This document shows positions 9,879-29,898 of a stretch of 64,000 nt of DNA, piece by piece; within the stretch, counting starts at the first letter, position 1; each line of letters opens with the position of its first letter. Origin of the DNA: Planctomycetota bacterium (GTDB lineage: Bacteria; Planctomycetota; SZUA-567; H5-PLA8); the NCBI GenBank assembly GCA_015075375.1, contig JABTUM010000001.1, positions 117,201-181,200 on the forward strand, in the 5' to 3' direction. Made by a program: the position numbers and the translations under genes. The notes under the pieces were generated by a model. The model was not told the DNA's origin. It did no database searches and saw only the letters and a list, made by a program, of their open reading frames with translations.

Positions 9879-9965
9879 TGTGTTTCTACCGCAAGCGTTC
9901 GCCGCTCGGACTATACAGTGGAACGCCGCGAGTCGGCAGGCGCGGTCATCCTGAAGGAGTCCACC

Positions 9966-14354: not shown

Positions 14355-17300
14355 ACCGGGCATTCGAAGGGAGTTTCGCTTGATTCCGCGCGTGCGTCCT
14401 AACTGTCGGCTCGCCATGGTCTTGGGGGTATTCGCCTCGGCCGCGCTGGCGGGCGCGGAAATGGAGCGCATCGAATCGCTGGAGTCGCTCCAGTTCGACC
14501 CTGAGCGTGCGGTACTGCGAGTTGGACGGGACGGACGCGTCTGCTTGGCCTCGCCGAAGGAGCTTGAGCAAGGCTACGTATTGCTTATGGCGCCCGACGG
14601 ATCGAATCGCTCCGGACGCGAATTGGGCGCGTCCTTGCACATGGTCACGTCCAACGCGCGCGGGGAATTGGGGGCATGCCACCATTCCTGGCAGAATTCA
14701 GGACTGGCGACGTACGACGCCTCGGGCGAGCCGGTGGCGAAGAGTTCCGGAAAGTACACGCAGGTCGAAGCCGGGGAAGCGAGCGGCGACTTTTACTTCC
14801 GCAGGGAAAGCGAGATTGCGCGCGTTGCTCCGGACGGACAGGAAGTGCATGCCTACACGCCGCCGGGCGCGCTGTGGGGCCAGAAGCCCGCAGCCTTCCG
14901 GGTTCACGAAGGTTCCGAAGCGTTTTTCATCCTGGCGCAGGACCGCAAAATTCATTGCGTAGGTTTCGACGGCGCCGAACGCTGGAGCGTTCCCGCGCCC
15001 TTTAATCTGCATGCCGTACTTGCCCGCTGTGCGCTGGACCTGCCTTTCGATTTGAGTTCGGATGGCACGCTCTACGTGTACGACGCCAAGAGCTGCGCCG
15101 TTCAAGTCTATGCCAGCGGCAACGAAATCGGCGGGCCCGAGGCCCTGGGATCGGTCAAACTCCCCGCCGAGCAGCTGGGACCCAGCCCCGGCGCCGAGAA
15201 GCAAGGCGTCCTGCAACTCGCCGTTGCGGGCAGCGACATCCTTATCCGCCGGCGCTTGCGCACCGAACCCGGCGAACTTTTCCAGCGCTACGAACTGAAG
15301 TCAGGCAAGCTCCTGCAAACGGTCTGTTCACAGACCCTGCGCTTGAAAGCCGAGTACACCGAGAACGTCTGGCAAGCCGGACAAAGCGTACCCTTTACGA
15401 TACGCGCTATGCTCGGCGCCAATGCCTGCGCGCCGCGGTGGCGCGTCTACGCAGCGCCCTTCGGATCCACCGCGTGGCGGGAATTTCCCTGGTCCAACGA
15501 CCGGCTGGAACTTCCGGCCGATGCCAGCGGGCTGTATAGGCTTCGCGTCACCGCCTCCATCGCGCCGCGCCCCTTTTTCACCGTGGGGAAGGACATGCCC
15601 GCCGACCTGACGCTGGAAGGCGCCGTCGAGATTCGGCCGCCGCAGTCCAACGGATCGATCAGTGTGTACACACCGGCCAATCGCGAAGCCTATGCCCGCG
15701 GGGAATCCATTCCCTTCAAAGTCTTGGTGCGTGCCGCGGATCCCAAACCGCGCAAAGCAAGCGTGGTCCTGCAAGCCGGAGCGCAAACGCTGCACTCGTG
15801 GTCGCTCGATGCGCGGCCCGGCGAAGCGGCCGCACTCGAACTATCCTCTGCTTTCACGCGGGTGCTGGCCCCTGGGCGCTACGTACTGTCCGCGCGCGCG
15901 GAAGGATTGGCCCCATCCGATCAATGCCTCTGGATCGGTCCGGGGCCTTCCCGTCCGACTTTTCGCACCCTCGATTACCAGGACTACGGAGCGTTTCAGG
16001 ACCGTAAGTCTGCGGCCCATTTGTGGAACAGCGCCGACGCGGCCGCCGAAGAAGCCGCCGAACAGCGCCGGCTGGGCCGCTCGCTGCTGATCCAACGCCT
16101 GGGCGTGCCGCCCACCTCCGGCGATCCTTTTGTCTGGAAGCCCGACCACCTCGCACTCCTGGACGGCCTGCGCCAGCGCTTGGCCGCCGATCCACTGGCT
16201 GCCGCGCCCGAGAAAGCAGACCTTGCGCCGCCGCTTGCGCAGGCTTTGTCCCAGTTGGGCGCGCAAGGCGTCGAACATATGTCGATCCTGATGAACAACG
16301 ATGCCGGTCTGCCGCTCGGCACCGGATACGACAAGCGCAAGCCCGAGGAACTGCTGGCTCAACTCAAGGCCGTGACCGCATACGTGAAGGAGTTCCCCGC
16401 CTTCCGCGGCTGGACCTGGGCCGCCAACTGGTGGGTCTTTGCCAAGCGCGGAGCCAAGGCCGGGCGCACGCCCGAAGAACAAGCGGCTTACAAAGCCGCG
16501 TTGGAGCGCGCCCAAACCACCGGCGCGTGGGATCCTGTCCTCGATACGGTCTGCGACGTTCGCCTGAGTTTTGCCGTGGAGGCTCAGGATCTGTTCAACG
16601 CCGCGTTGCGCGAACTGGCGCCGAAGGCCGTGACCGCCGTCTCCGGTCCCTTTCGCAACGTGGAGTGTTACCCGCCCGTCACCTTTAACAATGTGGACGA
16701 AGTGGATTTGCAGGCGCAGTTCGAGCAGATTTCTTTGCCCTACCATGCAGCCTTCGCGGTCGACTTTTACAAACGGCCGGGCAAAGACGTGCTCTCCCAT
16801 CCCGAACTGGGCAACGACCTCGGCACCGGCGATCAATTCCTGCCCAACTCGTTCATGAGCATCGCGCGCGGTTCGAATTCCTCGGGATTCGCCAGCGGAT
16901 ACGGCTACCGGGAACCCGATCCACGCACGAATCAAGGCGGTTGTCCCAGCATCCAGCGCGCCTTTTTTCCTCTCATGGAAAGCTTGGGGCCTTGGCTTGC
17001 GACGCTCCGCGACGACGACCGCGTGGCCATCGTCGCCTCCGCACGCATGCTGAAGACCGATAAATGGCATCGCCTGACGGGGCTGCACTTCGGCCGGCTG
17101 TTCGAGGCCTGGGTCTCCTGCATGTTTGCGCACCACCCGGCCCGCATCGTTTTCGCGGAGGACGCGTCCGCCGATCTGCTGGCGCGATTCAAAGCCATCC
17201 TGGTGGTCGACCAGCGCTTCGAGTTGGAGCCGGCGTTGGCCGGCGCGCTGAAGGCCGCACAAGCGAAGGGCGTAAAGATCCTCCACGATTCCGGCTGCCT

Positions 17301-19872: not shown

Positions 19873-20082
19873 TTAGCCGGCGACGACGCGCACGCGAGCA
19901 GCCTTCGGACCCTTATCGGACTGGACGGTTTCGAACTCGACCGCCTGGCCCTCTTGGAGGCTCTTGAAACCCTCGCTCTGGACCTCGCTGAAATGAACGA
20001 AGAGATCCTTCCCGCCACCATCGGGCGTGATGAATCCGAACCCCTTCTGATCGTTGAACCACTTGACCTTACCGAGAGCCAT
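19873..20082 (-). CDS. cspA: cold-shock protein, CspA family
   Basis: The 69-aa protein [34 protein letters not shown].. contains the RNP1 and RNP2 motifs. A long 5' UTR lies upstream. Confidence 0.9.
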
Positions 20083-20513: not shown

Positions 20514-21026
20514 TTACCCCAGACTCAGCAGCCAATTTAGACCCAAGGCTCCGGTTACAGCCCAGCCTGCGTAGTGCAGCGTCGCCGCGGCGCGGTTCAA
20601 GCGTGGATGGCTTGGCCAGCGGATCGCGCAAAGACGATACAAGGCGGCCACGGCAAAGAAGAAATAAAGCAAGGGCCCCATCCGGTGGGATTGAAGAGCG
20701 CCCAAGAGGTCGCCTTGAGTCAGACGCACGAAAGACCGGCTCAGTCCGCAGCCCGGACAATCGAGGCCCACCAACCGCTGGCTTAGGCATAGCGCAGGAA
20801 TGGAATGACCCGCGATCGACAGTCCACCGCCCCCGGCTTCGTATTTAAATAGTAATGGGGTCAGAAGCAGGACCAAGCAGAAGCAGAGTATCGTGAAATG
20901 ATCGGTGCGGCTCTCGCCGCCGCCCGAATAGCGAAGCGAAAGACCCCAGAACGCCGACCGGCGCGCAGGGAGGGAATCATCCGGCACGCGCGGCTCGAGC
21001 TTTCTCGATGCATCCGTGGCAGGCAA
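20514..21026 (-). CDS. DUF2752 domain membrane protein (last gene of the Ubl operon)
   Basis: The CPGCGLSRSF motif is diagnostic of DUF2752, and hydrophobic helices are present. The annotated 5' end overlaps the E2 gene by about 50 nt, so the true start is probably internal and non-ATG. Confidence 0.45.
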   Translation of the reverse strand: MPATDASRKLEPRVPDDSLPARRSAFWGLSLRYSGGGESRTDHFTILCFCLVLLLTPLLFKYEAGGGGLSIAGHSIPALCLSQRLVGLDCPGCGLSRSFVRLTQGDLLGALQSHRMGPLLYFFFAVAALYRLCAIRWPSHPRLNRAAATLHYAGWAVTGALGLNWLLSLG

Positions 21027-21888
21027 AATCTTCCTCTCCGCTCTTCATGCGAACTTTCTTGACGTGGTCCAGACACGCGCTGGCGCCGCAAACCCGGCAC
21101 GCCACCAAGCAATCGTGGCAGCGACCGGCTTCACAGACCGCACAATGTCCCGCGTGCTCGGAGCAGACCGCTTGTTGACATGCCGCGCAGCGATAGCCGC
21201 ATTTGGCGCAGACGGATCGTTTGCAGGTCGAACAGGTGACCAGATCGCACTTCAGGCAGGTTAAGCCTCCACAAACGGGACAGCTCATCACGCAATTTTC
21301 GCACGCCACATGCAGATTCGTACACGCCTGCATTTCGCTGGGATCGCCGCGCTTGCCGCAGTTCGCGCACGTGTCGCCCACCACCGCCGAACCGTCTTCG
21401 CGCCGCCCCGTCGCCTCGCCGACCGACAGCAGCGCGGAAAAATCCGTCGTGTCCAGCGGAAGACGATCCTTGTTCTCCACGGCCCATTTGGCGGCTTCGC
21501 CATTCAGAGGGCTCTTGATGTTATAGGACTGAAAACTCAGCATCTCCGCGATCCGCACGACCAGATTGGCCAGCGACTCGCCGGCCGCCCAGTGGTCACC
21601 GATACAGATGGCGTGCGGCGCGATATTGGGATGAAAGACCGGGGTCAGCATGCGGCATTGCGGCGCCATGCGCGGATAGCTGCCCGTCAGCGTAATCTCG
21701 ATCTGAAACTGATTGCGGATCTGGAAGCCGCCGTCGAGACGCTTCTCCATGCCCGTGACCAGATACTCGAGCTGGTACTTCTCCGGCGGATTGCCCAGCG
21801 TCTTCTTGATGCGAATGCGGGAATCCTTGGTGAAGAAACTGCTGAGCTTGTCGTAATCGGCCTTGAGGCGCCGCAGCCGGACACTCAT
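20977..21888 (-). CDS. ubiquitin-conjugating enzyme (UBC/E2)-fold protein with C-terminal Cys-rich multi-CxxC extension
   Basis: The N-terminus RLRRLKADYDKL is followed by the E2 active-site block PVFHPNIAPHAICIGDHW. This is the HPN motif with a Cys 7 residues downstream, as in eukaryotic E2s. LNGEAAKW matches the E2 LNxEAAxxY motif. The C-terminal roughly 130 aa carries at least 12 CxxC pairs. The start ATG overlaps the stop of the upstream protease gene. Confidence 0.8.
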   Translation of the reverse strand: MSVRLRRLKADYDKLSSFFTKDSRIRIKKTLGNPPEKYQLEYLVTGMEKRLDGGFQIRNQFQIEITLTGSYPRMAPQCRMLTPVFHPNIAPHAICIGDHWAAGESLANLVVRIAEMLSFQSYNIKSPLNGEAAKWAVENKDRLPLDTTDFSALLSVGEATGRREDGSAVVGDTCANCGKRGDPSEMQACTNLHVACENCVMSCPVCGGLTCLKCDLVTCSTCKRSVCAKCGYRCAACQQAVCSEHAGHCAVCEAGRCHDCLVACRVCGASACLDHVKKVRMKSGEEDFACHGCIEKARAARAG

Positions 21889-23183
21889 GGCGTCTCCTTT
21901 TCGGTGAGGCTCAGCCAGCGCTCCTGCTGCCCGGCGTCGAGCAATTTCAACAAGGTCATCGTACTGATCGCGAAGCTCAGACCTTCGGCCACCTGCTTAT
22001 CTTCCGTCAACGTGTTGATTCCCACCAAATCGCCCTGCTTCGTGTACAAACCGCCGCCGCTGTTCCCCGAATTGATCGGCGTCTGAGTCTGATACAGTTC
22101 GACGCCGTGCGGCCCCCCCTCCATGCGGCGCAGGCCGGAGATCGATCCCTGCGTGTAACTCCAGCTCAAGCCCATCGGATTGCCCACCGCAAACACGTCT
22201 TCACCGATCCCCACCGGTTCCCGGGAAACCTTGATCTGTGCATAGCGCTCGAGTGCGATCACGGGGCAACTTAAAATCACCAAATCGACGTCGCCTTCGG
22301 CTTTCCACTGAATCTCGGCCTTGCTCGATTCGCTCGTGTAGAAAATGACTTCGATCTCGCCCGACTTCGCTTCGCCGATGACATGCCGGTTGGTCAGAAT
22401 GTACGCGGTGTGATCGACATGCTTGAGGATCACGCCGGAACCGTAGCTCTGCACCTCGGCCGAACCGCCCACCGCAACCACCACATTCGCCCGCATCGCG
22501 TTGCCGATGGGCGCCGGCATGCGCGCCAGGTGGTCTTCGGACGGCATGCTCTCGTAAAAGTCGTTATTGATTTTCACCAATTGCTGCTGGCGGCTGAGCT
22601 GTCCGTACAGCACGACAAAGTAAGCGATCACCAAGGCAACCGGCACAAGCGTCGCACCGACGGCCGTAGCCAGCCCAGAAATGCGGTTCTTGGGATTGTT
22701 GATCCGCAATAACGCCACGACGCCGACGCCGATCGCAGCGAACGCCATGAACATGCCCAGGACCAGAAGCTGCATATTGGCTTGGATCGCGCCCACCAGG
22801 CCCGCCAGACTCAAAATCGCCAGCGCCACGCCGGTCCAGGCCATGCGGCTGTGGCGTTCGGGAGGAGGCGGAAGAAAAGCCGCGGCCGCCGCGGCTCCCC
22901 CGGGCGACCGAGGGCGCGGAGGCGCCAACGGCGCGCTAAGGACTTCCTGTTCCGAGAGCACGATATCCGCCGGACGAGCGGGGTTATCCATGCGCACCGC
23001 TTGGTCGCAATGGTACGACGAACAACCGCGCTTATGCGCCCAGCACGTCTCGTGATGAATGCTTCCGCAGGACGGGCAGGAAATGATCAACTGGCCGGCC
23101 GTAACCGTTTCCTGGCAAAATGGACACGTATTGCCCGCATGAAACAGGCTGGCCAAAACCGGATCGGGCGTGCTTGTGGCCAT
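21885..23183 (-). CDS. membrane-anchored trypsin-like (S1/DegP-type) serine protease with N-terminal C4HC3 RING/PHD-like zinc finger
   Basis: The N-terminal CPFC-x12-CPSC-x4-H-x2-C-x6-C-x4-C finger is followed by TM helices. The protease domain has His (TNRHVIG), Asp (DVDLVIL) and Ser (GNSGGGL). The start is trimmed to MATSTPD, which overlaps the previous stop by 1 nt. Confidence 0.8.
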   Translation of the reverse strand: MATSTPDPVLASLFHAGNTCPFCQETVTAGQLIISCPSCGSIHHETCWAHKRGCSSYHCDQAVRMDNPARPADIVLSEQEVLSAPLAPPRPRSPGGAAAAAAFLPPPPERHSRMAWTGVALAILSLAGLVGAIQANMQLLVLGMFMAFAAIGVGVVALLRINNPKNRISGLATAVGATLVPVALVIAYFVVLYGQLSRQQQLVKINNDFYESMPSEDHLARMPAPIGNAMRANVVVAVGGSAEVQSYGSGVILKHVDHTAYILTNRHVIGEAKSGEIEVIFYTSESSKAEIQWKAEGDVDLVILSCPVIALERYAQIKVSREPVGIGEDVFAVGNPMGLSWSYTQGSISGLRRMEGGPHGVELYQTQTPINSGNSGGGLYTKQGDLVGINTLTEDKQVAEGLSFAISTMTLLKLLDAGQQERWLSLTEKETP

Positions 23184-23809
23184 CAATCGAATACCGCCAA
23201 CAGGATCATGATCACGATCAGCAGGCTTGCGATGCCCACCCCGCACCACAACAACGCTCTAAGCGTAGTGGGCAAGCGCCGATAGTCGACTCCCATCAAG
23301 CTCCCGCTTTGGATCAGGATCAGGCACAATACCAACCCCAAGGGCGCCAAACAGGCCGCGGCACAAAGCAGGAAAAGCATCACGGATTTGTTGCGCGCCG
23401 CCGCGTACTCGGTGCCCTCGTACGAACGGCTGCGGTACTCGTCCTTCGATATCAGATCCCGCGAGGCGAATACGGCGCCGCAGAATCGGCACTTCAGCGC
23501 TTCGGAGCGAATCTTCCGTGCGCACGATGGACACGGCTTCTCGTCTCCCCAGGCATTGGAAACCGGTTGGTCCTGATGGGAGGGTTTGATCGTTGGCGGA
23601 GCGGACTTGCACCCGTAGGCCGAACAACCGCGATTCTCGGACCAGCAATCGGCGTGGAATACAAGCGAGCAGGACGGGCAATTCAAGACCTGCTCGCCGC
23701 CCAGAATGGACGACTGGCAGATCGAACATTGCTTACCTGCCACCTCCGCGTCAGCCGAATAGACCGGCGGCTGCGGAAAGGCGGAAGCGGCGTGCGGCGA
23801 TGCAGCCAT
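23183..23809 (-). CDS. membrane protein with C4HC3 RING/PHD-like zinc finger plus zinc ribbon (candidate E3-like)
   Basis: The finger is CSIC-x12-CPSC-x4-H-x2-CW-x5-C-x4-C. A zinc ribbon CPSC..(12)..CRFCG follows, then about 3 TM helices at the C-terminus. Confidence 0.7.
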   Translation of the reverse strand: MAASPHAASAFPQPPVYSADAEVAGKQCSICQSSILGGEQVLNCPSCSLVFHADCWSENRGCSAYGCKSAPPTIKPSHQDQPVSNAWGDEKPCPSCARKIRSEALKCRFCGAVFASRDLISKDEYRSRSYEGTEYAAARNKSVMLFLLCAAACLAPLGLVLCLILIQSGSLMGVDYRRLPTTLRALLWCGVGIASLLIVIMILLAVFD

Positions 23810-23819
23810 GCCCTGAATC

Positions 23820-24512
23820 CTACCTTTCGTTCAACAATGCCACGCGAATCAGGATATGAACCAGCGTGACGGCCACCGTAAGCAATACGAGTTTCACGCC
23901 TTTCTTTTTGCCTTGAATCATCCAGACAATTCCGCAAATGCAGGCGATCCAACCGCACAGGATTCCGAAAAGAATTTCCGAGCCGCTCAGCTTTTCGTCT
24001 TCGGCCGCCTGGCGCTTCATCCGGTCCTGCCGAAAGCGCGCGGCCTTGTCGAGCAACTCGCCGCAATAGCGGCACTTGCGCGCTTCTTTCAGCACGCTTT
24101 CGCCGCAGTAGGGGCACGGCTTCATGGCCGCGGTATTCGTGCCCCCGGGTGCGCCCTGCGGAACATTGGCCGCGGGGGCGGCGGCCATCTGCAGCGCACT
24201 GGGACAGTCGGCATTCCGGCACGCGCCGTGCGCTTCGTGGCAGGCTTGGTGCATGGTTCCTTGGCACTGCGGGCAGTTCCAGACATCCTGACCCAACTCG
24301 ATCCCCACGCTGCAACCTGGACAGATGCGGCCGGCGAGGACTTTGTTGGCTTTCATGCGTTCGGGAAAGGAGGGCAGGCCGGCATCCTGCGCGGCCGCAA
24401 ACCCCACGCCGAGATTCTCCATACCGCAATTAGGGCACTTCTTCTTCGGCCCTAAAGGTCTGGCCTCCTGTCCGCACTGAGGACACGTAAAGAAACCCGG
24501 TTGCGGCATCAA
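23820..24512 (-). CDS. membrane protein with two zinc ribbons and a C4HC3 RING/PHD-like zinc finger (candidate E3-like), paralogue of 23183..23809
   Basis: The order is CPQCG..CPNCG, then CPGC-x12-CPQC-x4-H-x2-C-x6-C-x4-C, then CPYCG..CRYCG, then a TM helix. Confidence 0.7.
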   Translation of the reverse strand: MMPQPGFFTCPQCGQEARPLGPKKKCPNCGMENLGVGFAAAQDAGLPSFPERMKANKVLAGRICPGCSVGIELGQDVWNCPQCQGTMHQACHEAHGACRNADCPSALQMAAAPAANVPQGAPGGTNTAAMKPCPYCGESVLKEARKCRYCGELLDKAARFRQDRMKRQAAEDEKLSGSEILFGILCGWIACICGIVWMIQGKKKGVKLVLLTVAVTLVHILIRVALLNER

Positions 24513-24552
24513 TAGATTCTCCTGAATCGTTCCATTAGGGCACCCGTCGCTC

Positions 24553-25653
24553 TCAGGCGCCTTGGCCCTTTTCGTGATAGCGCAATACGGTCTCCCCGAT
24601 GGATACCGTATCCCCGGGTTGGAGCAGGTACTTCTCGACCTTCTTCCCGTTCACGAACACGCCCTTCTCACTGCGTTCGTCCTCTATCATGTACCGCCGG
24701 CCGGTTCGCTTCACCGAGGCATGCAGCGGCGCCACATCGGGATCCTTAAAGAGGTAGATGTCGGACTTCGGCGCCGAGCCGATTCGCATCGACTGCTTGA
24801 AGAGCACAAAATGTTTCCCGGCCAGCGGCCCCTTGAGCATCTGGAACCAGGCTTCCTTGGAAATGTTCTCGAAGATGCCGATGAACAAGCCCACGAACAA
24901 ACCCACCGCCAGCACGCCCACGCAACGGCTCATCGACGCATCGCCGGACGCGAAGTCGATCCAGCGGCTGATCGGATCGAAGAAGAGTCCGCCCAACAAT
25001 CCACCGATCAACCCGCCGACGAATCCGTTTAGGGTCAGTTGTTTGGACTTCAGCGCGATGCCCAGACCCAAGCCCGCCCCCATGGAAATGATGGCCCATG
25101 CCAGACCGCGGCCGCACATGAAGATGAAGAAGTTAATGCCCTTGATCGGAAACTCGTCCGGCTTGAATCCGCCGGGCGGAACCTGGATGTTGCTGGTGGC
25201 CACGTTGGAGGTGATGCTGAAGACGATGTCCGCCACGACGGTGGTCAGGACCGTCACCCCCAAGCCAACCCCCAATCCAACGGCGCCGCAATAGGCCGCC
25301 TGCCGGACGTTGCGATTGGCGATGCCATACATGACCCCGATCGCCAGTCCCAGTACCCCGGCTACGGGGCCGAACAGGATGTAGTCGGATACGAAGGGAA
25401 TCGCGATCTGGTCGGTCTCGTCGTTAAAGTATGGCTCGAAGGCTGCCCAGACCGCCAATGCGCCCACGCTGCCCGCCACCGCGTAGTAAAAGATGGGATT
25501 GAAATAAAGCGGCGTCTTGATTTCTGCGATAGGTTCGTCGGACTGCGGCTGCAGCGAACGCTGCAGATTGATCATGTCGTCGATGCCCGGATCTTTCAGT
25601 TCGTCGTCGGTAATAATGATATCGGCCATCGGCCACCTTCCTTCTTGTACCAT
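24553..25653 (-). CDS. polytopic membrane protein with C-terminal FHA (phosphothreonine-binding) domain
   Basis: Multiple Gly-rich TM helices are followed by the FHA motif GSAPKSDIYLFKDPDVAPLHASV..DERSEKGVFVNGKKV..GDTVSIG. Confidence 0.7.
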   Translation of the reverse strand: MVQEGRWPMADIIITDDELKDPGIDDMINLQRSLQPQSDEPIAEIKTPLYFNPIFYYAVAGSVGALAVWAAFEPYFNDETDQIAIPFVSDYILFGPVAGVLGLAIGVMYGIANRNVRQAAYCGAVGLGVGLGVTVLTTVVADIVFSITSNVATSNIQVPPGGFKPDEFPIKGINFFIFMCGRGLAWAIISMGAGLGLGIALKSKQLTLNGFVGGLIGGLLGGLFFDPISRWIDFASGDASMSRCVGVLAVGLFVGLFIGIFENISKEAWFQMLKGPLAGKHFVLFKQSMRIGSAPKSDIYLFKDPDVAPLHASVKRTGRRYMIEDERSEKGVFVNGKKVEKYLLQPGDTVSIGETVLRYHEKGQGA

Positions 25654-25684
25654 CCCGGGATCCCGGCGCGTCCCGATTCGTCCA

Positions 25685-26992
25685 CTACGGAGACTTGGTT
25701 TCCGCTTCGGTCTTCGTCTTCTCGTCCGCGCTTTCCTTGCGCTCGGGGAAAAGCGCCTGGATCAAACCCGGATGCATGCGCGCCAGCGTCTCTTTGCATT
25801 CCGGATACAACCGCACTGCGGTCTCCACCAGTTGCTTCAAATGGCCCAGTTCGGCGGGCGAAAGCGATTCGAGATCGATGGGCCTTCCGCCCACGAGCAG
25901 CAACTCGCTCAAGCGCATGACGAAGAGCATGCCGACGTACGTCTCCAGGCGATCCTGCCGGTCGGCATTTTCGCGCACGCGTCCCGACAGCGTCTGCTTC
26001 ATGCTCATCGCTTCGGACATATCTTTTCGAAACGTCTTTCGAGGTTTGTCGTACGCCAACTTCAGCGTCGCCAACTGCGTGGAGAGATCCTTGATACCTT
26101 GCTCGGCCGCCGCGGGATCTTTCTTCGCCAACGCCTGCTCGACGGATTCCACCTTGTCGCCCAATGCGGCGAAATCCTTCGAGGCCATCGCGTTCATGCC
26201 CGCGAATTCAAGCACCGAGTAAATCTCGGACTCCAAGCCCTCCAGCGCCGTGGCGCGCAGGCTGTGCATCATCAAGTTCTGCCCGAGCAGGAATCCGCAC
26301 AGAAAGAAAACCACGAGAAAGAAGAGGTGGGACAGCCCCATCGGAACGCGCGGTTCTTCGGCCGGCCGCGAGGCCGCCGCGTCGGGCGAGCGGCGTTCCT
26401 CGGCCGCGCTCCCGCCCGAAGCCTCGTGCATCGAGAACGGCTCCGCCGCGCCCGTCACCAACTTCACTTCGTCGCTCCCCACCCAGTACCGCGCCAGCGG
26501 CAGGCAGTTCCCGCGGACCCAGGCGAAGCAGCCCTCTTCTTTGCGCTTCGTCTCGATCACCACCGCCACATGGAAGGGCGCATTGAAGTAATTTTCCTGG
26601 ATGAACATATCCATCTTGGAAAGAAAGACGCCGAAACCTGGGTGCGTGTGATACCAGCCGACGATCTTGCGGTCCGAATATTGCTTATCGAAAATGCCGT
26701 AAATATGTTGCCACGCCTGATGCGTAAGGGTCACCTGAGCGCCGTAGTTCTTGGTGTCTTCGCCTTCGATCACGGCGGTCACGTACAGGAATGGGCCTTG
26801 CGCATCGCGCTTCACGTCGCCCACCAGCACGCCCATGATCTCTACTTCGTCCGTCGTCGCCGCGTGCGCCTTCATGCGACGATAGGCTTCGGGCGAAAAG
26901 CAGACGCGATACTCGGTCTCGATTTTGGCCGGAAAGGCTCCTTCGGGAGCATCTTTCTTCTCGACCTGCCGATAGTCCAACGTGCCGGCCAT
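25685..26992 (-). CDS. JAB/MPN (JAMM) metalloprotease fused to a TM helix and long coiled-coil C-terminal region (candidate deubiquitinase/Ubl-processing peptidase)
   Basis: The conserved Glu (EVEIMGVLVGD) and the JAMM motif HTHPGFGVFLSKMD (H-x-H-x7-S-x2-D) are both present. The start is trimmed to MAGTLDYRQ, which overlaps the E1 3' end by about 20 nt. Confidence 0.8.
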   Translation of the reverse strand: MAGTLDYRQVEKKDAPEGAFPAKIETEYRVCFSPEAYRRMKAHAATTDEVEIMGVLVGDVKRDAQGPFLYVTAVIEGEDTKNYGAQVTLTHQAWQHIYGIFDKQYSDRKIVGWYHTHPGFGVFLSKMDMFIQENYFNAPFHVAVVIETKRKEEGCFAWVRGNCLPLARYWVGSDEVKLVTGAAEPFSMHEASGGSAAEERRSPDAAASRPAEEPRVPMGLSHLFFLVVFFLCGFLLGQNLMMHSLRATALEGLESEIYSVLEFAGMNAMASKDFAALGDKVESVEQALAKKDPAAAEQGIKDLSTQLATLKLAYDKPRKTFRKDMSEAMSMKQTLSGRVRENADRQDRLETYVGMLFVMRLSELLLVGGRPIDLESLSPAELGHLKQLVETAVRLYPECKETLARMHPGLIQALFPERKESADEKTKTEAETKSP

Positions 26993-27009
26993 ACCGCTGT
27001 TCCTTGCCG

Positions 27010-28182
27010 TTAGTTCGCCAAATCGCCCAAGACTTCGCCCGCATCCCCATCGAATAAGTACGAAATCGTGCGCTCCCCGTTGCGCGCGGTGACCACGTCG
27101 TACGGCGGAACGCCCCACGCGGCCATGCTCATGTCTTCATGCCCCGGCTCGAGGCCCAAGGTCGACGTGGTCTCCGGCGCGCGCATCTGGCCGCACTTGG
27201 GGCAACGCCCTTCCGCTTCGGTCACCTTACCCAACGAGCGAAAACACGCCTCCGTCTCGCCGCAAGCCGCGCAGCTAAGCCCGGTGACAAGATCGCGCGC
27301 AAGCTGCAGCACCGTCTCCGGCCCCAGCGCGCTGCGGGCGCGTTCGAGCAGCGCGCCGAGGGTCACCTCCGCCACGCCCCCGCCCAACGGTTCCAGTTCG
27401 GCAAAGCGCTCGTGCGCAAAGCACTCGGGCTTGCGCGTATACGTCACCAGGTAGGACTCGCCCGCCAGACCGTTGAACACGAAACCGCGACCGGCGATCG
27501 TCTCCAGTCCGTGGAGCAGCTTGACGGCCTCCTGCATCTGGAAGCCCGCGATGATGCTGGCCGTCGTCGGCGTGGTCGGTACTTTTCCTTCCTGAAGTTG
27601 TTCGCGCGTCAGCAGAGCGCACGAACGGCGGCTCTCGAGCATCTTCCAGTCGGTCTCGTTCATCGTGCACTCGTAGCACGGCCCATCCGGTGCAAAGACG
27701 CGCGCGACACCGTTCAGCACCTCGATCGCTCCGTCGATCCAGGTCTTGCCGGCAAAGAGGCTGGAACCGTTGATCGCGACTCGTGCTTCGCGGTTGTCGA
27801 GCCCGCCCAGGATCACATCGGCCCAAAAATAGACGCCCAGGCCCAGATCGTGGACCACGTTGCCTACGAACGGCTTCGCTTTGATGAGCGGATACAGTTC
27901 GCGCGCTGCGCGGCAGGCCACCTCGGCCTTGGGCTGCCCGCGGTCTGATTCTCTAAAGAGCGGCGAGCGCGTGAGATTGGAAAGCTCGATCCGGTCCATA
28001 TCCGCGACGAGGACGCGGCCGATGCCGAACAGCGCACAGTTCTTGACAAGCTCGTTGCCCAGCGCACCGGCGCCAATCACCAGCACCTTTGCGCGGCTCA
28101 GGCGCTCCTGCTCCCACCATGAAATGAGTTCGAAACGGCTGAAGCGGCTGTCGGCCGAGTCGTCCAGATTGACTTTGATCAA
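27010..28182 (-). CDS. E1-like ubiquitin-activating enzyme (ThiF/MoeB/HesA superfamily) with C-terminal zinc-ribbon extension
   Basis: The Rossmann/adenylation motif is RFSRFELISWWEQERLSRAKVLVIGAGALGNELVKNCALFGIGRVLVADMDRIELSNLTRSPLF. CxxC pairs (GPCYEC, CAACGE..CPKCG) are present. The gene apparently starts at a TTG. Confidence 0.8.
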   Translation of the reverse strand: MIKVNLDDSADSRFSRFELISWWEQERLSRAKVLVIGAGALGNELVKNCALFGIGRVLVADMDRIELSNLTRSPLFRESDRGQPKAEVACRAARELYPLIKAKPFVGNVVHDLGLGVYFWADVILGGLDNREARVAINGSSLFAGKTWIDGAIEVLNGVARVFAPDGPCYECTMNETDWKMLESRRSCALLTREQLQEGKVPTTPTTASIIAGFQMQEAVKLLHGLETIAGRGFVFNGLAGESYLVTYTRKPECFAHERFAELEPLGGGVAEVTLGALLERARSALGPETVLQLARDLVTGLSCAACGETEACFRSLGKVTEAEGRCPKCGQMRAPETTSTLGLEPGHEDMSMAAWGVPPYDVVTARNGERTISYLFDGDAGEVLGDLAN

Positions 28183-28206
28183 GCCGCCAGCCTCCCAAGG
28201 CCGCGC

Positions 28207-28497
28207 CTAGACGCGCGCGCCGCCCGCCGTAATCTCCGGCTGCAGACGCAACACATCTCCTTCACGGATGCCGGCCTGGGTCAGCGTCTCCTCATCGAGC
28301 AACTGCCGCCCGCTGGCTTTATGGTGAAACTTGTAACTCATCAACTGTCCGTCCGGACTGTGGCGCGGAAGGTTCATACGATCCACCAGCAGCACGATGA
28401 TGCGATTGACCGACGCTTGGCCCGGCAGGCTGACCACGGCCTTCTTGTTGCCGGTCGCGTCCCAGACTTCCACACTGATGTTGCCTGCATCGCTCAC
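28207..28497 (-). CDS. ubiquitin-like beta-grasp protein ending in GG followed by a 3-residue tail (precursor-like)
   Basis: The 96-aa protein ends ..DVLRLQPEITAGG-ARV-stop. Its length and hydrophobic periodicity (ISVEVWDATGNKKAVVSL..) fit a beta-grasp fold. It lies immediately upstream of the E1. Its start ATG overlaps the stop of the previous gene (ATGA). Confidence 0.65.
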   Translation of the reverse strand: MSDAGNISVEVWDATGNKKAVVSLPGQASVNRIIVLLVDRMNLPRHSPDGQLMSYKFHHKASGRQLLDEETLTQAGIREGDVLRLQPEITAGGARV

Positions 28498-29537
28498 GAA
28501 CCGACCTCCCGGCGCCTGGCCAGCGCCTTGTCCAGATCGCCTTCGATGGAACCGTCGAGCAGGTACCAGCGCCCTTCGTGGCGTATGAACGCCTTGCGTA
28601 CGACCACATCTTCCTTCTGCTGGAAAATCAGGATCAGGATTACCGCGATCCAGAGGCTCAGCAGGATGCTAAGCATCAGGAGGCTGTTGTAGGTGGTCAA
28701 TTTGAGGTTCGCCTCGACCACCGCCACCCCGTCGGTTTCCGGAAGAATGACGCGCACCTTATTGAGCTGGTAGTAGCGCACCCAATTGTTCTTACCCTGG
28801 AAGATCTCTTTCCAATAGGCGGCATACGATTTCACGTCCGAAAACGGTCTTCGCTGTGGGTGATTGGGAATCTTCGGATTCTTGAAGGCAATCGACGGCG
28901 GATGCTCCGCTTGTCGCGCCGGCGGAATCAACGCGGCGAACGCCTTTCCGGTACGACCCGTCTTTACCGCCATGAAGAAGCGCTTGTACGCCTGTATCGG
29001 GCCTTCGGACTCCTGCAGGTGCATCGCATTGCGGTCGTTGAAAAACGAAACGAGCGTCGGGATGCCGAAACAGAGTCCCAATATGATCCCAAATGCCAGC
29101 GCAGGCTCGCCGTTACGCGACATCGCTCCGAATGCCAGCAGCGCCAGGCTCGCAAGAGTCAGTACGCCCAGCGCGATGGTCTTGCCCGACCACATGCCGC
29201 CACGCAACACGTCGTCCTGAGCCGGAGAATGCCGAGCCAACTCGCCACGAATCAGATCCAGCGCCTTCGCCAGTTCCTCGTTCGACATGGCCGTCGAAGC
29301 CAGGGACTCGCCGCAATGAGGGCACCTGCGGGCGCCGGCGGGAATGGGCTCCGCGCAGGCAGGGCAGGAAATCGTGCCGGCGTTGGGCGGAGCGGTCGGT
29401 GCATGAATCGGCGGTACGACAGGAGCTTCCGTCGCCAGAATCTGCGCGCCGCAGACTTGGCAGGTAACCGGCAGCCCTGCCAGCTCATCCTTGACGCGAA
29501 ACGTTTTCCCGCACGTACATTGGACCGAAATAGGCAT
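28494..29537 (-). CDS. membrane protein with N-terminal tandem zinc ribbons (first gene of the Ubl operon)
   Basis: The N-terminus has CTCG..CQVCG and CPAC..CPHCG ribbons. The second resembles ribbons in the two RING-like membrane proteins. Two TM helices follow. The start is trimmed to the ATG at 29537 (MPISVQ). Confidence 0.55.
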   Translation of the reverse strand: MPISVQCTCGKTFRVKDELAGLPVTCQVCGAQILATEAPVVPPIHAPTAPPNAGTISCPACAEPIPAGARRCPHCGESLASTAMSNEELAKALDLIRGELARHSPAQDDVLRGGMWSGKTIALGVLTLASLALLAFGAMSRNGEPALAFGIILGLCFGIPTLVSFFNDRNAMHLQESEGPIQAYKRFFMAVKTGRTGKAFAALIPPARQAEHPPSIAFKNPKIPNHPQRRPFSDVKSYAAYWKEIFQGKNNWVRYYQLNKVRVILPETDGVAVVEANLKLTTYNSLLMLSILLSLWIAVILILIFQQKEDVVVRKAFIRHEGRWYLLDGSIEGDLDKALARRREVGS

Positions 29538-29898
29538 TCGCCGCCGTCCTGTATGGAATCCGTTCAAGCACTATAAAATTTGTGTGCGGCCATGCTATAG
29601 GACGTATAGGTAGTAGCAAGAGCATCCGACTTCACATGTAAGCAAAGCACCGTTTGCATCCAGCCTCGACTGCACACGTGAAGGCTTGCCGCAGCTTGAA
29701 GAAGTAGGTCCCGAATCAAGCCGTCGGCACAGCTCGCAAAATTATTATGGGATTGTCTCGCCCGCCGCGACAAGTATCTGCCTTTCGAACCGATTCGCGC
29801 ACGCAAGGCCCGCAGACGGTCATTTTCGCGCGTGAGCCCTTTCCTGTTTTTCAGGATGTGATAGGTTTCCGGAATCAAAAATTAAAAGGAGTTCCCTT

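What the first reader, a model, noticed from the sequence alone, without database searches (positions are those of the whole stretch)
20514..29537. Ten-gene operon encoding a complete ubiquitin-like conjugation apparatus (Ubl, E1, E2, JAB, RING-like fingers) with membrane components
Ten consecutive minus-strand genes are translationally coupled, with ATGA or 1-nt overlaps at four junctions. They encode a beta-grasp protein ending in GG plus a short tail. They encode an E1-like adenylating enzyme with the ThiF Rossmann motif. They encode a JAMM/JAB metalloprotease with an intact H-x-H-x7-S-x2-D site. They encode a UBC-fold E2 with the HPN motif and a correctly spaced active-site Cys. They encode three paralogous C4HC3 RING/PHD-like binuclear fingers. 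That inventory matches the eukaryotic Ub, E1, E2, E3 and DUB set, placed in one bacterial operon. The additional genes are an FHA membrane protein, zinc-ribbon membrane proteins, a RING-protease fusion and DUF2752. They suggest the system acts at the membrane and may be coupled to phospho-Thr signalling. Operons combining E1, E2, Ub and JAB have been predicted computationally in scattered bacteria. This membrane-anchored ten-gene version with three RING-like paralogs is, to my knowledge, functionally undescribed. I cannot confirm novelty without database searches.
Basis: partly seen in the sequence, partly recalled or inferred. Interest (0 to 1): 0.95.

Follow-up and report, generated by a model that had tools for sequence, protein, structure and literature searches.

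The report
Membrane-anchored bacterial ubiquitin-like conjugation operon
A planctomycete chromosome carries a ten-gene operon encoding a ubiquitin-like tag, its E1, E2, three membrane-anchored RING ligases and a deubiquitinase; operons of this kind were predicted by computer in 2011, and I found no experimental study of them.

Summary
Ten tightly packed minus-strand genes (20514-29537) encode:
- a YukD-family beta-grasp Ubl
- a ThiF-type E1
- a JAMM peptidase
- a UBC-fold E2
- three C4HC3 Prok-RING_1 fingers, one fused to an HtrA-like protease
- an FHA membrane protein, a zinc-ribbon membrane protein and DUF2752

Catalytic residues are intact and invariant in orthologues. AlphaFold models match ubiquitin and E2 folds.

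The cassette is not unique. At least 200 species genomes in more than ten phyla encode the E2. Of 43 loci with enough flank, 40 keep Ubl-E1-JAB-FHA-E2 in the same order.

- The conserved Ubl end is ...PEITAG, a single Gly followed by a variable tail.
- The FHA domain lacks the canonical phosphothreonine-binding residues family-wide, so phospho-Thr coupling is unsupported.

This is the bacterial RING-E3 ubiquitin-like operon class attributed to Burroughs, Iyer and Aravind (2011), and later papers call it uncharacterised. Best explanation: an E1-E2-RING cascade tagging targets at the cytoplasmic membrane face, reversed by the JAB peptidase. Its biological role is unknown. I file it as a new member of a known, untested kind.

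The parts
29744..29773 (-). Candidate sigma-70-like promoter in the 362-nt divergent intergenic region upstream of the first gene
   Evidence: Consensus scan gives TTGTCG-18-CATAAT, 9 of 12 matches. The number of such sites in the region is no higher than in shuffles, so this is only a candidate. The sequence is shown.
28494..29537 (-). Gene 1: zinc-ribbon membrane protein (347 aa). It has N-terminal CxxC zinc ribbons, a TM hairpin (121-165), a ~120-aa domain of unknown function and a third TM (286-304).
   Evidence: Pfam DZR, Zn_Ribbon_1 and Zn_ribbon_3 at 1e-6. Hydropathy. Orthologues sit directly upstream of the Ubl only in the window's subtype, 8 of 43 loci.
28207..28497 (-). Gene 2: ubiquitin-like modifier precursor (96 aa). 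Beta-grasp of the YukD family, with conserved C-terminus ...R84-LQPEITA-G92 followed by the tail GARV.
   Evidence: - Pfam YukD 1.9e-9.
- AF2 model pLDDT 85. Top fold matches are Caldiarchaeum ubiquitin, SUMO, ubiquitin, NEDD8 and BilA.
- 45 orthologues are 55-89% identical to the window protein, with invariant PEITAG followed by 0 to more than 50 variable residues.
- 2300 relatives in the protein database.
27010..28182 (-). Gene 3: E1-like adenylating enzyme (390 aa). Invariant features: G37xG39xxG42, D61, R72, K85, D129, C169xxC172, crossover-loop C188, C254/H257, and C304xxC307...C327xxC330.
   Evidence: Pfam ThiF 1e-47. Invariant columns in 20 orthologues. The profile scores higher against eukaryotic UBA7, UBA1, UBA6 and NAE (138-115 bits) than against ThiF or MoeB (105 bits).
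25685..26992 (-). Gene 4: membrane-anchored JAMM/JAB isopeptidase (435 aa). JAB domain at ~30-180 (E51, H115xH117, S125, D128), one TM (218-236) and a ~200-aa helical C-terminal region.
   Evidence: Pfam JAB 9.6e-14. Motif residues are invariant in 31 orthologues. The best solved relative is the Caldiarchaeum Rpn11-like peptidase 6fjv (3e-10), followed by CSN5 and Rpn11. One TM in 30 of 31 orthologues.
24553..25629 (-). Gene 5: polytopic membrane protein (about 5-6 TM) with a C-terminal non-canonical FHA domain (358 aa)
   Evidence: Pfam Yop-YscD_cpl 2e-17 and FHA 3e-14. Hydropathy. The canonical pThr-binding residues are replaced family-wide: GR becomes an invariant G284-S285, SRxH becomes [E/A]-P-x-H303, and N becomes D/Q/A/K at position 322.
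23820..24509 (-). Gene 6: RING-A (229 aa). Zinc ribbon, C4HC3 RING (C63...C102), a second zinc ribbon and a C-terminal TM hairpin (180-226).
   Evidence: Pfam Prok-RING_1 1e-7 (32.3 bits, cut-off 29.1) and Zn_ribbon_3 5e-8. Hydropathy.
23183..23809 (-). Gene 7: RING-B (208 aa). C4HC3 RING (C28, C31, C44, C47, H52, C55, C62, C67), a zinc ribbon and a C-terminal TM hairpin (148-207).
   Evidence: Pfam Prok-RING_1 1.1e-9 (38.6 bits). Metal ligands are conserved in 76 orthologues or paralogues. Two TM in 73 of 76. PDB sequence matches to RING-H2 and PHD fingers are only marginal.
21885..23183 (-). Gene 8: RING-TM-protease fusion (432 aa). C4HC3 RING (C20...C59), about 3 TM (115-192) and an HtrA-like serine protease without PDZ domains (H267, D300, S375).
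   Evidence: Pfam Trypsin_2 2.5e-20 and Prok-RING_1 1.2e-7. NCBIfam HtrA and DegS partial matches. The catalytic triad and GNSGG are invariant in 62 orthologues. Three TM in 43 of 62 and two in 19 of 62 by crude hydropathy.
20977..21888 (-). Gene 9: E2 (303 aa). UBC core (1-155; H86-P87-N88, C95) plus a C-terminal array of 11 CxxC zinc knuckles (174-293).
   Evidence: - Pfam UQ_con 6.6e-11.
- 12-sequence alignment with invariant HPNIAPHA-C and 28 invariant Cys.
- C95 aligns with the catalytic Cys of UBE2K and UBE2C.
- The AF2 model matches Ubc13, Ube2K, UbcH5 and Rad6, with target-normalised TM-score 0.62-0.69.
- 3522 relatives in the protein database.
20514..20987 (-). Gene 10: DUF2752 membrane protein (157 aa from GTG 20987, or 170 aa from TTG 21026) with a conserved CPGCG motif
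   Evidence: Pfam DUF2752 2.9e-15. Found next to the E2 in 33 of 43 informative loci. Conserved C-x-x-x-CPGCG.

Best explanation
The operon encodes a working E1-E2-RING-E3 conjugation cascade for a ubiquitin-like protein, assembled on the cytoplasmic face of the inner membrane. All steps below are inferred from homology and motif conservation unless marked as shown.

1. The JAB/JAMM peptidase, tethered by one TM helix, trims the variable tail (GARV) from the 96-aa precursor and exposes Gly92 of the invariant ...PEITAG end.
2. The soluble E1 adenylates Gly92 with ATP and takes the Ubl as a thioester on the crossover-loop Cys188.
3. The Ubl passes to Cys95 of the soluble UBC-fold E2.
4. Three membrane-anchored C4HC3 RING proteins recruit E2~Ubl and direct transfer to lysines of targets at or in the membrane. 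Two have C-terminal TM hairpins. The third is joined through about three TM helices to an HtrA-like protease that is probably extracytoplasmic.
5. The same JAB peptidase removes the tag.

Shown here: presence of the genes, folds and motifs, membrane anchoring by hydropathy, and conservation of the cassette across phyla.

The polytopic protein with the non-canonical FHA domain is more likely a docking partner or substrate than a phospho-threonine reader. The solved T7SSb complex is a precedent, because YukD contacts the FHA domains of YukB there.

The downstream meaning of the tag is unknown. My leading guess is turnover or quality control of membrane or envelope proteins, in an ERAD-like arrangement.
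For: - All five enzyme and tag classes are detected above curated Pfam cut-offs.
- The Ubl model is a beta-grasp closest to Caldiarchaeum ubiquitin.
- The E2 model is a UBC fold, with C95 on the catalytic Cys of UBE2K and UBE2C.
- The JAB is closest to the Caldiarchaeum Rpn11-like peptidase, CSN5 and Rpn11.
- The E1 profile is closer to eukaryotic UBA enzymes than to ThiF or MoeB.
- Catalytic and metal-binding residues are invariant across phyla.
- The Ubl has an invariant ...PEITAG terminus followed by tails of 0 to more than 50 residues. In some orthologues the stop codon falls directly after the Gly. That is the pattern of a processed, C-terminally conjugated modifier.
- Ubl-E1-JAB-FHA-RINGs-E2 occur in the same order in 40 of 43 loci from at least ten phyla, with differing flanks.
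- Genes overlap or lie 10-55 nt apart, with no convincing internal terminator.
- E1, E2 and Ubl lack hydrophobic segments, while the JAB and all three RINGs carry TM helices.
- The related archaeal operon is reported to have been reconstituted in vitro (titles cited in PMC10557695; structures 6fno and 6fjv).
Against: - There is no biochemical or genetic evidence for this system. No conjugates, substrates or phenotypes are known.
- The RING fold was not tested structurally, and PDB sequence matches are marginal.
- The role of Cys188 rests on position only.
- The E1 C-terminal domain could not be shown to be a UFD.
- Topology comes from crude hydropathy. The protease side is ambiguous, with two TM rather than three in 19 of 62 orthologues.
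- YukD-family proteins studied so far act non-covalently (PMC12637312).
- A near relative (L007) has lost or relocated Ubl, E1 and JAB, and some Riflebacteria keep only RING-protease, E2 and DUF2752 together. The parts may therefore not always work as one unit.
Confidence: 0.75

Rival explanations
1. The biochemistry is the same, but the system is an anti-phage or conflict system like Bil, Bub or type II CBASS. The membrane RING ligases would tag incoming or assembling phage proteins at the membrane, or trigger abortive infection through the protease.
For: - The bacterial Ubl-conjugation systems reported as studied experimentally in the papers I found act in phage defence. Authors predict the same for the uncharacterised RING-containing operons (PMC10557695).
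- The Aravind group proposed that these mobile operons are selfish or conflict elements (PMC3417536).
- Distribution is sparse: about 200 of 185,579 species genomes, across many phyla.
- The operons are described as often missing in close relatives (PMC4197634).
- A near relative has a truncated cassette.
Against: - PADLOC gives only superfamily-level hits, to the Cap2 Rossmann part, Cap3 JAB and generic protease models.
- The flanks in the window are housekeeping or unknown genes: CspA, DnaE, FeoB, tRNA-Pro and a thioredoxin-like protein. I saw no defence or mobile-element genes.
- The E2 has no match in 50,697 phage records and only one distant plasmid match.
- The Ubl, E1 and E2 are strongly conserved (Ubl 55-89% across phyla).
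- E1 nearest neighbours are mostly from the same lineage. That fits long residence better than rapid defence-island turnover.
Confidence: 0.25
2. The Ubl is attached to a non-protein acceptor in the membrane, such as a phospholipid head group or an envelope precursor. This would resemble Atg8-PE lipidation or LPS ubiquitylation, and would explain why every E3 and the deconjugase are membrane-embedded.
For: All three RING proteins, the JAB peptidase and three accessory proteins are integral membrane proteins, whereas E1, E2 and Ubl are soluble. DUF2752 and the ZnR-TM protein have no known function. Nothing in the data identifies a protein substrate.
Against: There is no direct evidence for a non-protein acceptor. 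The E2 is a canonical UBC with an HPN motif and works with RING-type partners, an arrangement that normally targets lysines. No lipid-handling domain is detected.
Confidence: 0.08
3. The Ubl is not conjugated. Like YukD/EsaB in type VIIb secretion, it would be a non-covalent assembly factor for a membrane complex built around the FHA protein, and the E1/E2-like proteins would have other roles.
For: The Ubl belongs to Pfam YukD and NCBI names its relatives EsaB/YukD. In the solved T7SSb core complex, YukD binds the non-canonical FHA domains of a membrane protein (PMC12637312). This operon likewise pairs a YukD-like Ubl with a membrane protein carrying a non-canonical FHA domain.
Against: - The invariant C-terminal Gly with variable removable tails is unexplained by a purely structural role.
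- So are the invariant catalytic Cys residues of E1 and E2, the intact JAMM site and the strict co-occurrence with E1, E2, RING and JAB.
- No EssC/FtsK-type ATPase or WXG100 gene is in the operon.
- Non-covalent FHA binding could coexist with conjugation.
Confidence: 0.05

Closest known systems
Bacterial 'Prok-RING family 1' ubiquitin-like operons, predicted computationally by Burroughs, Iyer & Aravind 2011 (Mol Biosyst 7:2261; source of Pfam PF14446, from my own knowledge)
   Same: A C4HC3 prokaryotic RING finger sits next to E1, E2, a JAB peptidase and a YukD-like Ubl. Occurrence in Planctomycetes and Acidobacteria is reported (PMC4197634). The C4HC3 ligand pattern is noted in PMC11354881. 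All three RING proteins here score above the PF14446 cut-off.
   Different: Nothing differs in kind; this is a member. I could not read the 2011 paper. I therefore cannot say how much of the full ten-gene membrane architecture it already described: the FHA polytopic protein, the RING-protease fusion, DUF2752, the ZnR-TM protein and the E2 zinc-knuckle tail.
Caldiarchaeum subterraneum Ub/E1/E2/RING-E3/Rpn11 operon (reported as reconstituted in vitro; Hennell James 2017 and Fuchs 2018, cited in PMC10557695)
   Same: The five functional classes sit in one operon. The Ubl model's best structural match is Caldiarchaeum ubiquitin (6fno, 6fj7). The JAB's best solved relative is its Rpn11-like peptidase (6fjv). 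Its ubiquitin is processed by the Rpn11 homologue (title of Fuchs et al. 2018, cited), which matches the variable tails seen here.
   Different: - The archaeal system is described as a five-gene cluster (PMC4197634), and from my own knowledge its proteins are soluble.
- This one has ten genes, seven of them encoding membrane proteins: three RING paralogues, an FHA membrane protein, a protease fusion and DUF2752.
- Pfam classifies the Ubl here as YukD-like rather than ubiquitin (ubiquitin family E = 0.009).
- It ends in AG rather than GG.
Bil (BilABCD), Bub and type II CBASS Cap2/Cap3 bacterial Ubl-conjugation defence systems
   Same: Bacterial E1, E2, Ubl and JAB chemistry. BilA (8tyx) is among the Ubl model's structural matches. 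The E1 and JAB give weak PADLOC hits to the Cap2 and Cap3 models.
   Different: The papers I read describe those systems as combinations of E1, E2, Ubl and DUB, and they treat RING-E3 operons as a separate, uncharacterised class. Here the E2 is a canonical HPN-Cys UBC with RING partners and everything is membrane-tethered. There is no PADLOC family-level match.
YukD/EsaB of type VIIb secretion (and the EccD Ubl domain of T7SSa)
   Same: Same Pfam family (PF08817). EccD (7np7) appears among the fold matches. YukD contacts non-canonical FHA domains of the membrane ATPase YukB (PMC12637312), which parallels the co-encoded FHA membrane protein here.
   Different: In the solved T7SSb complex, YukD acts as a non-covalent assembly factor. 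From my own knowledge it has no E1 or E2 and no conserved C-terminal Gly. The operon here has no EssC-type ATPase or WXG100 substrate.
Eukaryotic membrane-embedded RING ligases (ERAD Hrd1/Doa10; MARCH family RING-CH with two TM helices). The comparison rests on general knowledge.
   Same: A cytosolic C4HC3-type RING is tethered by a small number of TM helices and works with a soluble UBC E2 at a membrane surface. RING-A and RING-B have a RING plus a two-TM hairpin.
   Different: The resemblance is architectural only. Pfam RINGv/RING-CH was not among the hits. The ligand spacing of the last pair (C-x4-C after x6) differs from RING-CH and PHD. No retrotranslocation ATPase or proteasome link is seen in the operon.

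Membership tests
Prokaryotic RING-E3 ubiquitin-like operon (Pfam Prok-RING_1 class, Burroughs et al. 2011) | Prok-RING_1 (PF14446) domain scoring above the curated cut-off, with eight C4HC3 metal ligands | tested here: met
   Three proteins score 32.3, 38.6 and 32.0 bits against a cut-off of 29.1. All three have an identical C-x2-C-x12-C-x2-C-x4-H-x2-C-x6-C-x4-C pattern, read. The ligands are conserved in orthologues.
Prokaryotic RING-E3 ubiquitin-like operon (Pfam Prok-RING_1 class, Burroughs et al. 2011) | Gene-neighbourhood association with Ubl, E1, E2 and JAB | tested here: met
   All are in one operon in the window, and in 40 of 43 informative loci elsewhere.
Prokaryotic RING-E3 ubiquitin-like operon (Pfam Prok-RING_1 class, Burroughs et al. 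2011) | E3 activity: RING-stimulated discharge of E2~Ubl | not testable with these tools
   Needs biochemistry.
Ubiquitin-like protein modifier | Beta-grasp fold | tested here: met
   AF2 model pLDDT 85 with a beta-beta-alpha-beta-beta order. Foldseek matches to ubiquitin, SUMO and NEDD8 at E about 1e-5, with query-normalised TM-score about 0.6-0.7 and target-normalised 0.7-0.8.
Ubiquitin-like protein modifier | Conserved C-terminal glycine that is terminal or exposed by processing | tested here: met
   Invariant ...PEITAG. The stop codon falls directly after the Gly in several orthologues, and variable tails follow it in others.
Ubiquitin-like protein modifier | Isopeptide conjugation to targets | not testable with these tools
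   Needs proteomics or in vitro assays.
Canonical UBC-type E2 | UBC fold with an HPN motif and a downstream catalytic Cys | tested here: met
   UQ_con 6.6e-11. H86-P87-N88 and C95 are invariant. C95 aligns to the catalytic Cys of UBE2K and UBE2C. The N-to-C spacing is 7 residues, against 8 in UbcH5 (the UbcH5 figure is from my own knowledge). The fold match gives target-normalised TM-score 0.62-0.69.
E1 (ThiF/MoeB/UBA superfamily) activating enzyme | Rossmann nucleotide-binding motif, Arg finger, Mg-binding Asp and a crossover-loop Cys | tested here: met
   ThiF 1e-47. G37xGxxG42, R72, D129 and C188 are invariant in 20 orthologues. Best PDB profile hits are UBA7, UBA1 and UBA6. Whether C188 is the thioester site is an inference from its position.
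E1 (ThiF/MoeB/UBA superfamily) activating enzyme | C-terminal ubiquitin-fold domain (UFD) that recruits the E2 | tested here: inconclusive
   Profile-profile comparison of the E1 alignment with the Ubl alignment was not significant (probability 0.45%).
JAMM/MPN+ isopeptidase (Rpn11/CSN5 type) | E...HxH-x7-S-x2-D zinc site | tested here: met
   E51, H115, H117, S125 and D128 are invariant in 31 orthologues. JAB 9.6e-14. Best solved relatives are the Caldiarchaeum Rpn11-like peptidase, CSN5 and Rpn11.
Phosphothreonine-binding FHA domain | Canonical pThr-contacting residues: Arg of the G-R motif, Ser of S-R-x-H and Asn of N-G (as in Rad53 FHA1 and GarA; from general knowledge) | tested here: not met
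   In 54 orthologues, G-R is G-S (52 S, 2 A), the Ser position is E/A/D, and the Asn position is D/Q/A/S (K in the window). The best Pfam model is Yop-YscD_cpl.
Known anti-phage defence systems (PADLOC-DB 2.0: CBASS Cap2/Cap3 and others) | Family-level match of the components to the system's models | tested here: not met
   Only partial, weak hits: the E1 Rossmann part to the E1-E2 models (at best 7e-11 over about 120 residues), JAB 1e-6, and the protease to RT-Protease. The Ubl, E2, RINGs, FHA and DUF2752 give none.
Type VII secretion YukD/EsaB | Co-occurrence with an EssC/YukB FtsK-type ATPase and WXG100 substrates | tested here: not met
   No such domains occur in any of the ten operon proteins. 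No flanking ORF I scanned has them either.

The most novel reading that the evidence does not exclude
This would be a bacterial counterpart of eukaryotic membrane-associated ubiquitylation (ERAD or MARCH-like). A hyper-conserved ubiquitin-like tag would be written onto inner-membrane or envelope proteins by a variable set (1-6 per genome) of TM-anchored RING ligases. One ligase would be physically coupled across the membrane to a periplasmic HtrA-type protease. The tag would be read by a non-canonical FHA membrane protein and erased by a TM-anchored Rpn11-like peptidase. That is a housekeeping proteostasis or signalling pathway rather than a defence system, and a candidate sister or source of the eukaryotic RING-E2-ubiquitin machinery.
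Probability: 0.25. Interest if true: 0.85.

Novelty: new member of a known kind. Interest (0 to 1): 0.6.

Why it matters
Ubiquitylation with a dedicated E1, a UBC-type E2, RING E3s and an Rpn11-like deubiquitinase is usually taught as a eukaryotic (and Asgard or Aigarchaeal) invention. One survey even reported that no bacterial genome holds a complete toolkit (PMC4327156). This operon is such a toolkit.

The comparative work here shows four further things:
- It is a coherent cassette conserved across more than ten bacterial phyla.
- Its modifier is conserved to a ubiquitin-like degree.
- All of its ligases are membrane-embedded.
- It occurs in at least one cultured strain, Lacipirellula limnantheis I41 (L070).

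A function for RING-dependent ubiquitin-like tagging in bacteria is an open question in the papers I found. This system makes it directly testable, and the answer bears on where the eukaryotic system came from. The kind itself was predicted in 2011, so the value lies in the detailed anatomy and the experimental handles rather than in a new discovery.

Tried and rejected
- **Phospho-Thr coupling through the FHA domain: rejected.** The canonical binding residues are absent family-wide.
- **'GG + ARV' as the processing site: revised** to 'AG + GARV' from 45 orthologues.
- **Membership of known defence systems: rejected** at family level. Defence-island or mobile context is not seen in the flanks, in phages or in plasmids, apart from one distant cyanobacterial cluster.
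- **The GTG at 27118 as the JAB start (477 aa, overlapping E1 by 109 nt): rejected** in favour of ATG 26992, on RBS and orthologue lengths.
- **E1 C-terminal UFD by profile-profile comparison: inconclusive**.
- **Reading Burroughs et al. 2011 and 2012: not held** in the library. What those papers describe is taken from citing papers and from memory.
- **Literature searches** for experimental work on this operon type or on DUF2752 found nothing.
I repeated it with database homologues.
- **Long plus-strand ORFs** overlapping the operon (for example 25517-27013, 498 aa) were not searched. I regard them as antisense products of GC-rich coding sequence, because the minus-strand frames at these positions carry the domain hits.

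Full report
**1. Observation**

The region 20514-29537 holds ten consecutive minus-strand ORFs. Start-codon and RBS inspection, together with orthologue lengths, gives these genes:

| Gene | Coordinates | Length |
|---|---|---|
| ZnR-TM | 28494-29537 | 347 aa |
| Ubl | 28207-28497 | 96 aa |
| E1 | 27010-28182 | 390 aa |
| JAB | 25685-26992 | 435 aa |
| FHA | 24553-25629 | 358 aa |
| RING-A | 23820-24509 | 229 aa |
| RING-B | 23183-23809 | 208 aa |
| RING-protease | 21885-23183 | 432 aa |
| E2 | 20977-21888 | 303 aa |
| DUF2752 | 20514-20987 (or 21026) | 157 aa (170 aa from 21026) |

Four junctions overlap: GTGA, a 1-nt TGATG, ATGA, and 11 or 50 nt. The others have gaps of 10-55 nt. A 362-nt divergent intergenic region lies upstream and contains one weak promoter-like site. 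About 430 nt separate the last gene from a cspA-like gene that has its own promoter-like site and a strong terminator. No convincing terminator lies inside the cluster.

**2. What the genes encode**

Pfam gives:
- YukD for the 96-aa protein (1.9e-9)
- ThiF (1e-47)
- JAB (9.6e-14)
- FHA and Yop-YscD_cpl (3e-14 and 2e-17)
- Prok-RING_1 in three proteins, all above the curated cut-off
- Trypsin_2 (2.5e-20)
- UQ_con (6.6e-11)
- DUF2752 (2.9e-15)
- zinc ribbons in the first gene and in RING-A and RING-B

NCBIfam adds only partial matches: HtrA and DegS for the protease, and MoeB, ThiF, UbaA and Ube1 for the E1.

The AlphaFold2 model of the Ubl (pLDDT 85) is a beta-grasp. Its best PDB match is Caldiarchaeum subterraneum ubiquitin, followed by SUMO, ubiquitin, NEDD8 and bacterial BilA.

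The E2 model (pLDDT 79.5) superposes on Ubc13, Ube2K, UbcH5 and Rad6 over about 150 columns, with target-normalised TM-score 0.62-0.69. A profile of the E2 family aligns C95 with the catalytic Cys of UBE2K and UBE2C.

The JAB domain's best solved relatives are the Caldiarchaeum Rpn11-like peptidase, CSN5 and Rpn11. The E1 profile scores higher against eukaryotic UBA7, UBA1, UBA6 and NAE than against ThiF or MoeB.

The three RING fingers share exactly the same ligand spacing: C-x2-C-x12-C-x2-C-x4-H-x2-C-x6-C-x4-C. This is the C4HC3 pattern reported for prokaryotic RINGs (PMC11354881). The RING fold itself was not modelled, and PDB sequence matches are marginal.

**3. Membrane anatomy**

This rests on crude hydropathy, so it is inference.
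- E1, E2 and Ubl have no hydrophobic segment.
- RING-A and RING-B end in a two-helix TM hairpin, present in 73 of 76 RING-B-like sequences.
- The RING-protease has about three TM helices between the RING and the protease (3 in 43 of 62 orthologues, 2 in 19 of 62). That would place the HtrA-like domain outside the cytoplasm.
- The JAB protein has one TM helix (30 of 31) followed by about 200 helical residues.
- The FHA protein has 5-6 TM helices before its C-terminal FHA domain.
- ZnR-TM has three TM helices and DUF2752 has two to three.

Since the E2 and Ubl are cytoplasmic, the RING and JAB domains must face the cytoplasm.

**4. Relatives elsewhere**

The exact E2 belongs to a Planctomycetes MAG (HS116_00545, contig of 3.26 Mb). 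The protein database holds 3522 relatives of the E2 and 2300 of the Ubl.

A pattern scan of one genome per species found the E2 in 200 of 185,579 species, which is a lower bound. The 80 loci kept come from these groups:

| Group | Loci |
|---|---|
| Planctomycetota | 41 |
| Riflebacteria | 10 |
| Myxococcota, Deltaproteobacteria and one locus titled only Proteobacteria | 8 |
| Acidobacteriota | 4 |
| Aminicenantes | 3 |
| Bacillota | 2 |
| Chloroflexota, Verrucomicrobiota, Lentisphaerota, Sumerlaeota | 1 each |
| Records titled only 'uncultured bacterium' | 8 |

The cultured strain Lacipirellula limnantheis I41 is among them.

Among the 43 loci with at least 7.6 kb upstream of the E2:
- 40 carry Ubl, E1, JAB, FHA and E2 in the same order
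- all 43 carry at least one RING protein, and 40 carry the RING-protease
- 33 carry DUF2752
- RING paralogues number 1 to 6 per locus

The first gene, ZnR-TM, is confined to the window's subtype (8 of 43). That subtype includes unclassified Planctomycetota, Brocadiia, Verrucomicrobiota and Victivallales, and shows the same ten-gene order. Flanking genes differ between genomes.

E1 nearest neighbours are mostly from the same lineage.

Exceptions:
- A 78%-identical relative (L007) retains only the last 59 codons of the FHA gene plus the downstream genes.
- Some Riflebacteria keep RING-protease, E2 and DUF2752 apart from the rest.

**5. New details from the comparison**

(a) The Ubl is 55-89% identical to the window protein across phyla. 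It ends in an invariant ...R-[LI]-QPEITAG, after which the sequences diverge completely: the tail runs from 0 to more than 50 residues, and several ORFs stop right after the Gly. K18 and K56 are invariant. This is the signature of a modifier that is processed and conjugated through Gly92. In the window the removable tail is GARV.

(b) E1 invariants include the nucleotide motif, R72, D129, a C169xxC172 pair and C188 in the crossover loop. They also include C254/H257 and a C-terminal four-Cys cluster, which may form further zinc sites. C188 lies where, from my own knowledge, ThiF and MoeB carry their reactive Cys and canonical E1s insert the Cys domain.

(c) The JAMM site (E51, H115, H117, S125, D128) and the protease triad (H267, D300, S375 in GNSGG) are invariant.

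(d) The E2 tail is a modular array of CxxC knuckles, modelled as beta-hairpins at pLDDT about 90. Its repeat number varies by lineage: 2 in Planctomycetia, 5, 10-11 in the window type, and up to 20.

(e) The FHA domain lacks the canonical phosphothreonine-contacting Arg, Ser and Asn in all 54 orthologues. G-S is invariant where G-R is expected. Its best model is the YscD-type FHA.

**6. How it most likely works**

I take the system to be a genuine E1-E2-RING cascade on the cytoplasmic face of the inner membrane.
1. JAB trims the precursor tail. The title of Fuchs et al. 2018, cited, indicates the same for the Caldiarchaeum Rpn11 homologue.
2. E1 adenylates Gly92 and forms a thioester.
3. E2 C95 takes over the Ubl.
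4. The TM-anchored RINGs bring E2~Ubl to targets in or at the membrane.
5. JAB reverses the mark.

The variable number of RING paralogues suggests that they act as substrate selectors.

The FHA membrane protein is better read as a docking partner or substrate than as a pThr reader. In the solved T7SSb core complex, the YukD Ubl binds the non-canonical FHA domains of the membrane ATPase YukB (PMC12637312).

Shown here: the genes, folds, motifs, conservation and hydropathy. Inferred: every chemical step, the topology and the targets. Confidence in the conjugation-at-the-membrane mechanism is about 0.75.

The biological role is open. My leading guess is turnover or quality control of membrane or envelope proteins. 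The main rival is phage defence.

**7. Rivals**

*Defence.* The bacterial Ubl systems reported as studied experimentally in the papers I found are defensive, and authors predict the same for RING-containing operons (PMC10557695). The Aravind group considered them mobile conflict elements (PMC3417536). The distribution is sparse (PMC4197634).

Against defence:
- PADLOC gives only superfamily-level hits.
- The window flanks are housekeeping or unknown genes.
- There are no phage matches and only one distant plasmid match.
- The core proteins are strongly conserved and cluster by lineage.

*Lipid or other non-protein acceptor.* This cannot be excluded, but nothing positive supports it.

*Purely non-covalent YukD-like role.* The invariant terminal Gly, the removable tails and the intact E1, E2 and JAB active sites contradict it.

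**8. Comparison with what is known, and novelty**

The closest described class is the prokaryotic RING-E3/E1/E2/JAB/YukD-like-Ubl operons attributed to Burroughs, Iyer and Aravind (2011).
- PMC4197634 says related operons occur in Actinobacteria, Planctomycetes and Acidobacteria and are uncharacterised.
- PMC10557695 calls them uncharacterised and the RING E3s 'rare examples'.
- PMC7159879 describes a related tri-ligase system.

I could not obtain the 2011 paper. I therefore cannot say which accessory genes it already listed.

The closest system reported as reconstituted experimentally is the five-gene Caldiarchaeum operon, whose ubiquitin and Rpn11 homologue are the best structural and sequence matches here. 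The window's system differs in being membrane-embedded and in its accessory genes.

My searches found no experimental study of this operon type and no paper mentioning DUF2752. The library lacks most subscription journals, so this is not proof of absence.

Verdict: a real feature, and a new member of a known, computationally predicted, experimentally untested kind. It has several anatomical details that may be new and a cultured carrier available for experiments.

Noticed in passing
window 50912-50957, 52575-52620, 53581-53626, 55475-55520 (minus strand): Four copies of the Rfam Acido-Lenti-1 sRNA (RF01687; 43-46 bits, gathering score 37) lie 1-2 kb apart. They sit inside a lower-GC stretch (50-58 kb; GC 0.53-0.57 against about 0.62 elsewhere, with strong negative GC skew) that has few long ORFs.
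   Followed up: no
window 9720-14354 (+), 14335-19782 (+), 29899-32841 (+), 41600-48892 (-): Four very large ORFs of 1544, 1815, 980 and 2430 aa. The first three gave no Pfam hit at E <= 1e-5; the 2430-aa ORF was not searched. The 980-aa ORF is transcribed divergently from the operon.
   Followed up: partly
window 20977-21500 (E2 residues 168-300); loci L037, L041, L043, L057-L085: The E2 carries a C-terminal array of CxxC zinc knuckles, modelled as stacked beta-hairpins at pLDDT about 90. Its repeat number varies by lineage from 2 to 20 CxxC pairs. No Pfam family covers it. Its role is unknown.
   Followed up: partly
L007:7117-11362: The closest species-level relative outside the window's own organism (E2 78% identical; Planctomycetota FR_30, 2.0-Mb contig) keeps RING-A through DUF2752 but only the last 59 codons of the FHA gene. 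It has no Ubl, E1 or JAB upstream, so the cassette is truncated or split.
   Followed up: partly
L001/L021:3651-6284, L017:8629-11382, L047: In some Riflebacteria the RING-protease, E2 and DUF2752 genes stand alone, preceded by CheX and cNMP-binding genes. Other Riflebacteria (L023, L028, L029) have the whole cassette, with RING-A moved downstream of the E2.
   Followed up: no
L086:7248-10725 (Crinalium epipsammum PCC 9333 plasmid pCRI9333.03): A compact cluster on a mobilizable cyanobacterial plasmid, next to a type IV coupling protein gene: ThiF, an 82-aa ORF, an 85-aa ORF, an E2 (29% identical to the window's UBC core) and a JAB. The two small ORFs have no Pfam hit. It appears to be a distinct, shorter relative.
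   Followed up: partly
L070, L074, L082 (between Ubl and E1); L057, L061, L062, L072, L075: Planctomycetia versions insert a small zinc-finger gene between the Ubl and E1 and expand the TM-RING paralogues to 4-6 copies. They lack the ZnR-TM first gene.
   Followed up: no
window 19873-20082 (-): A cold-shock-domain gene (CSD 2.8e-30) lies directly downstream of the operon on the same strand. It has its own promoter-like site (20167-20138) and a strong terminator (19844-19813). It is probably a separate transcription unit.
   Followed up: partly
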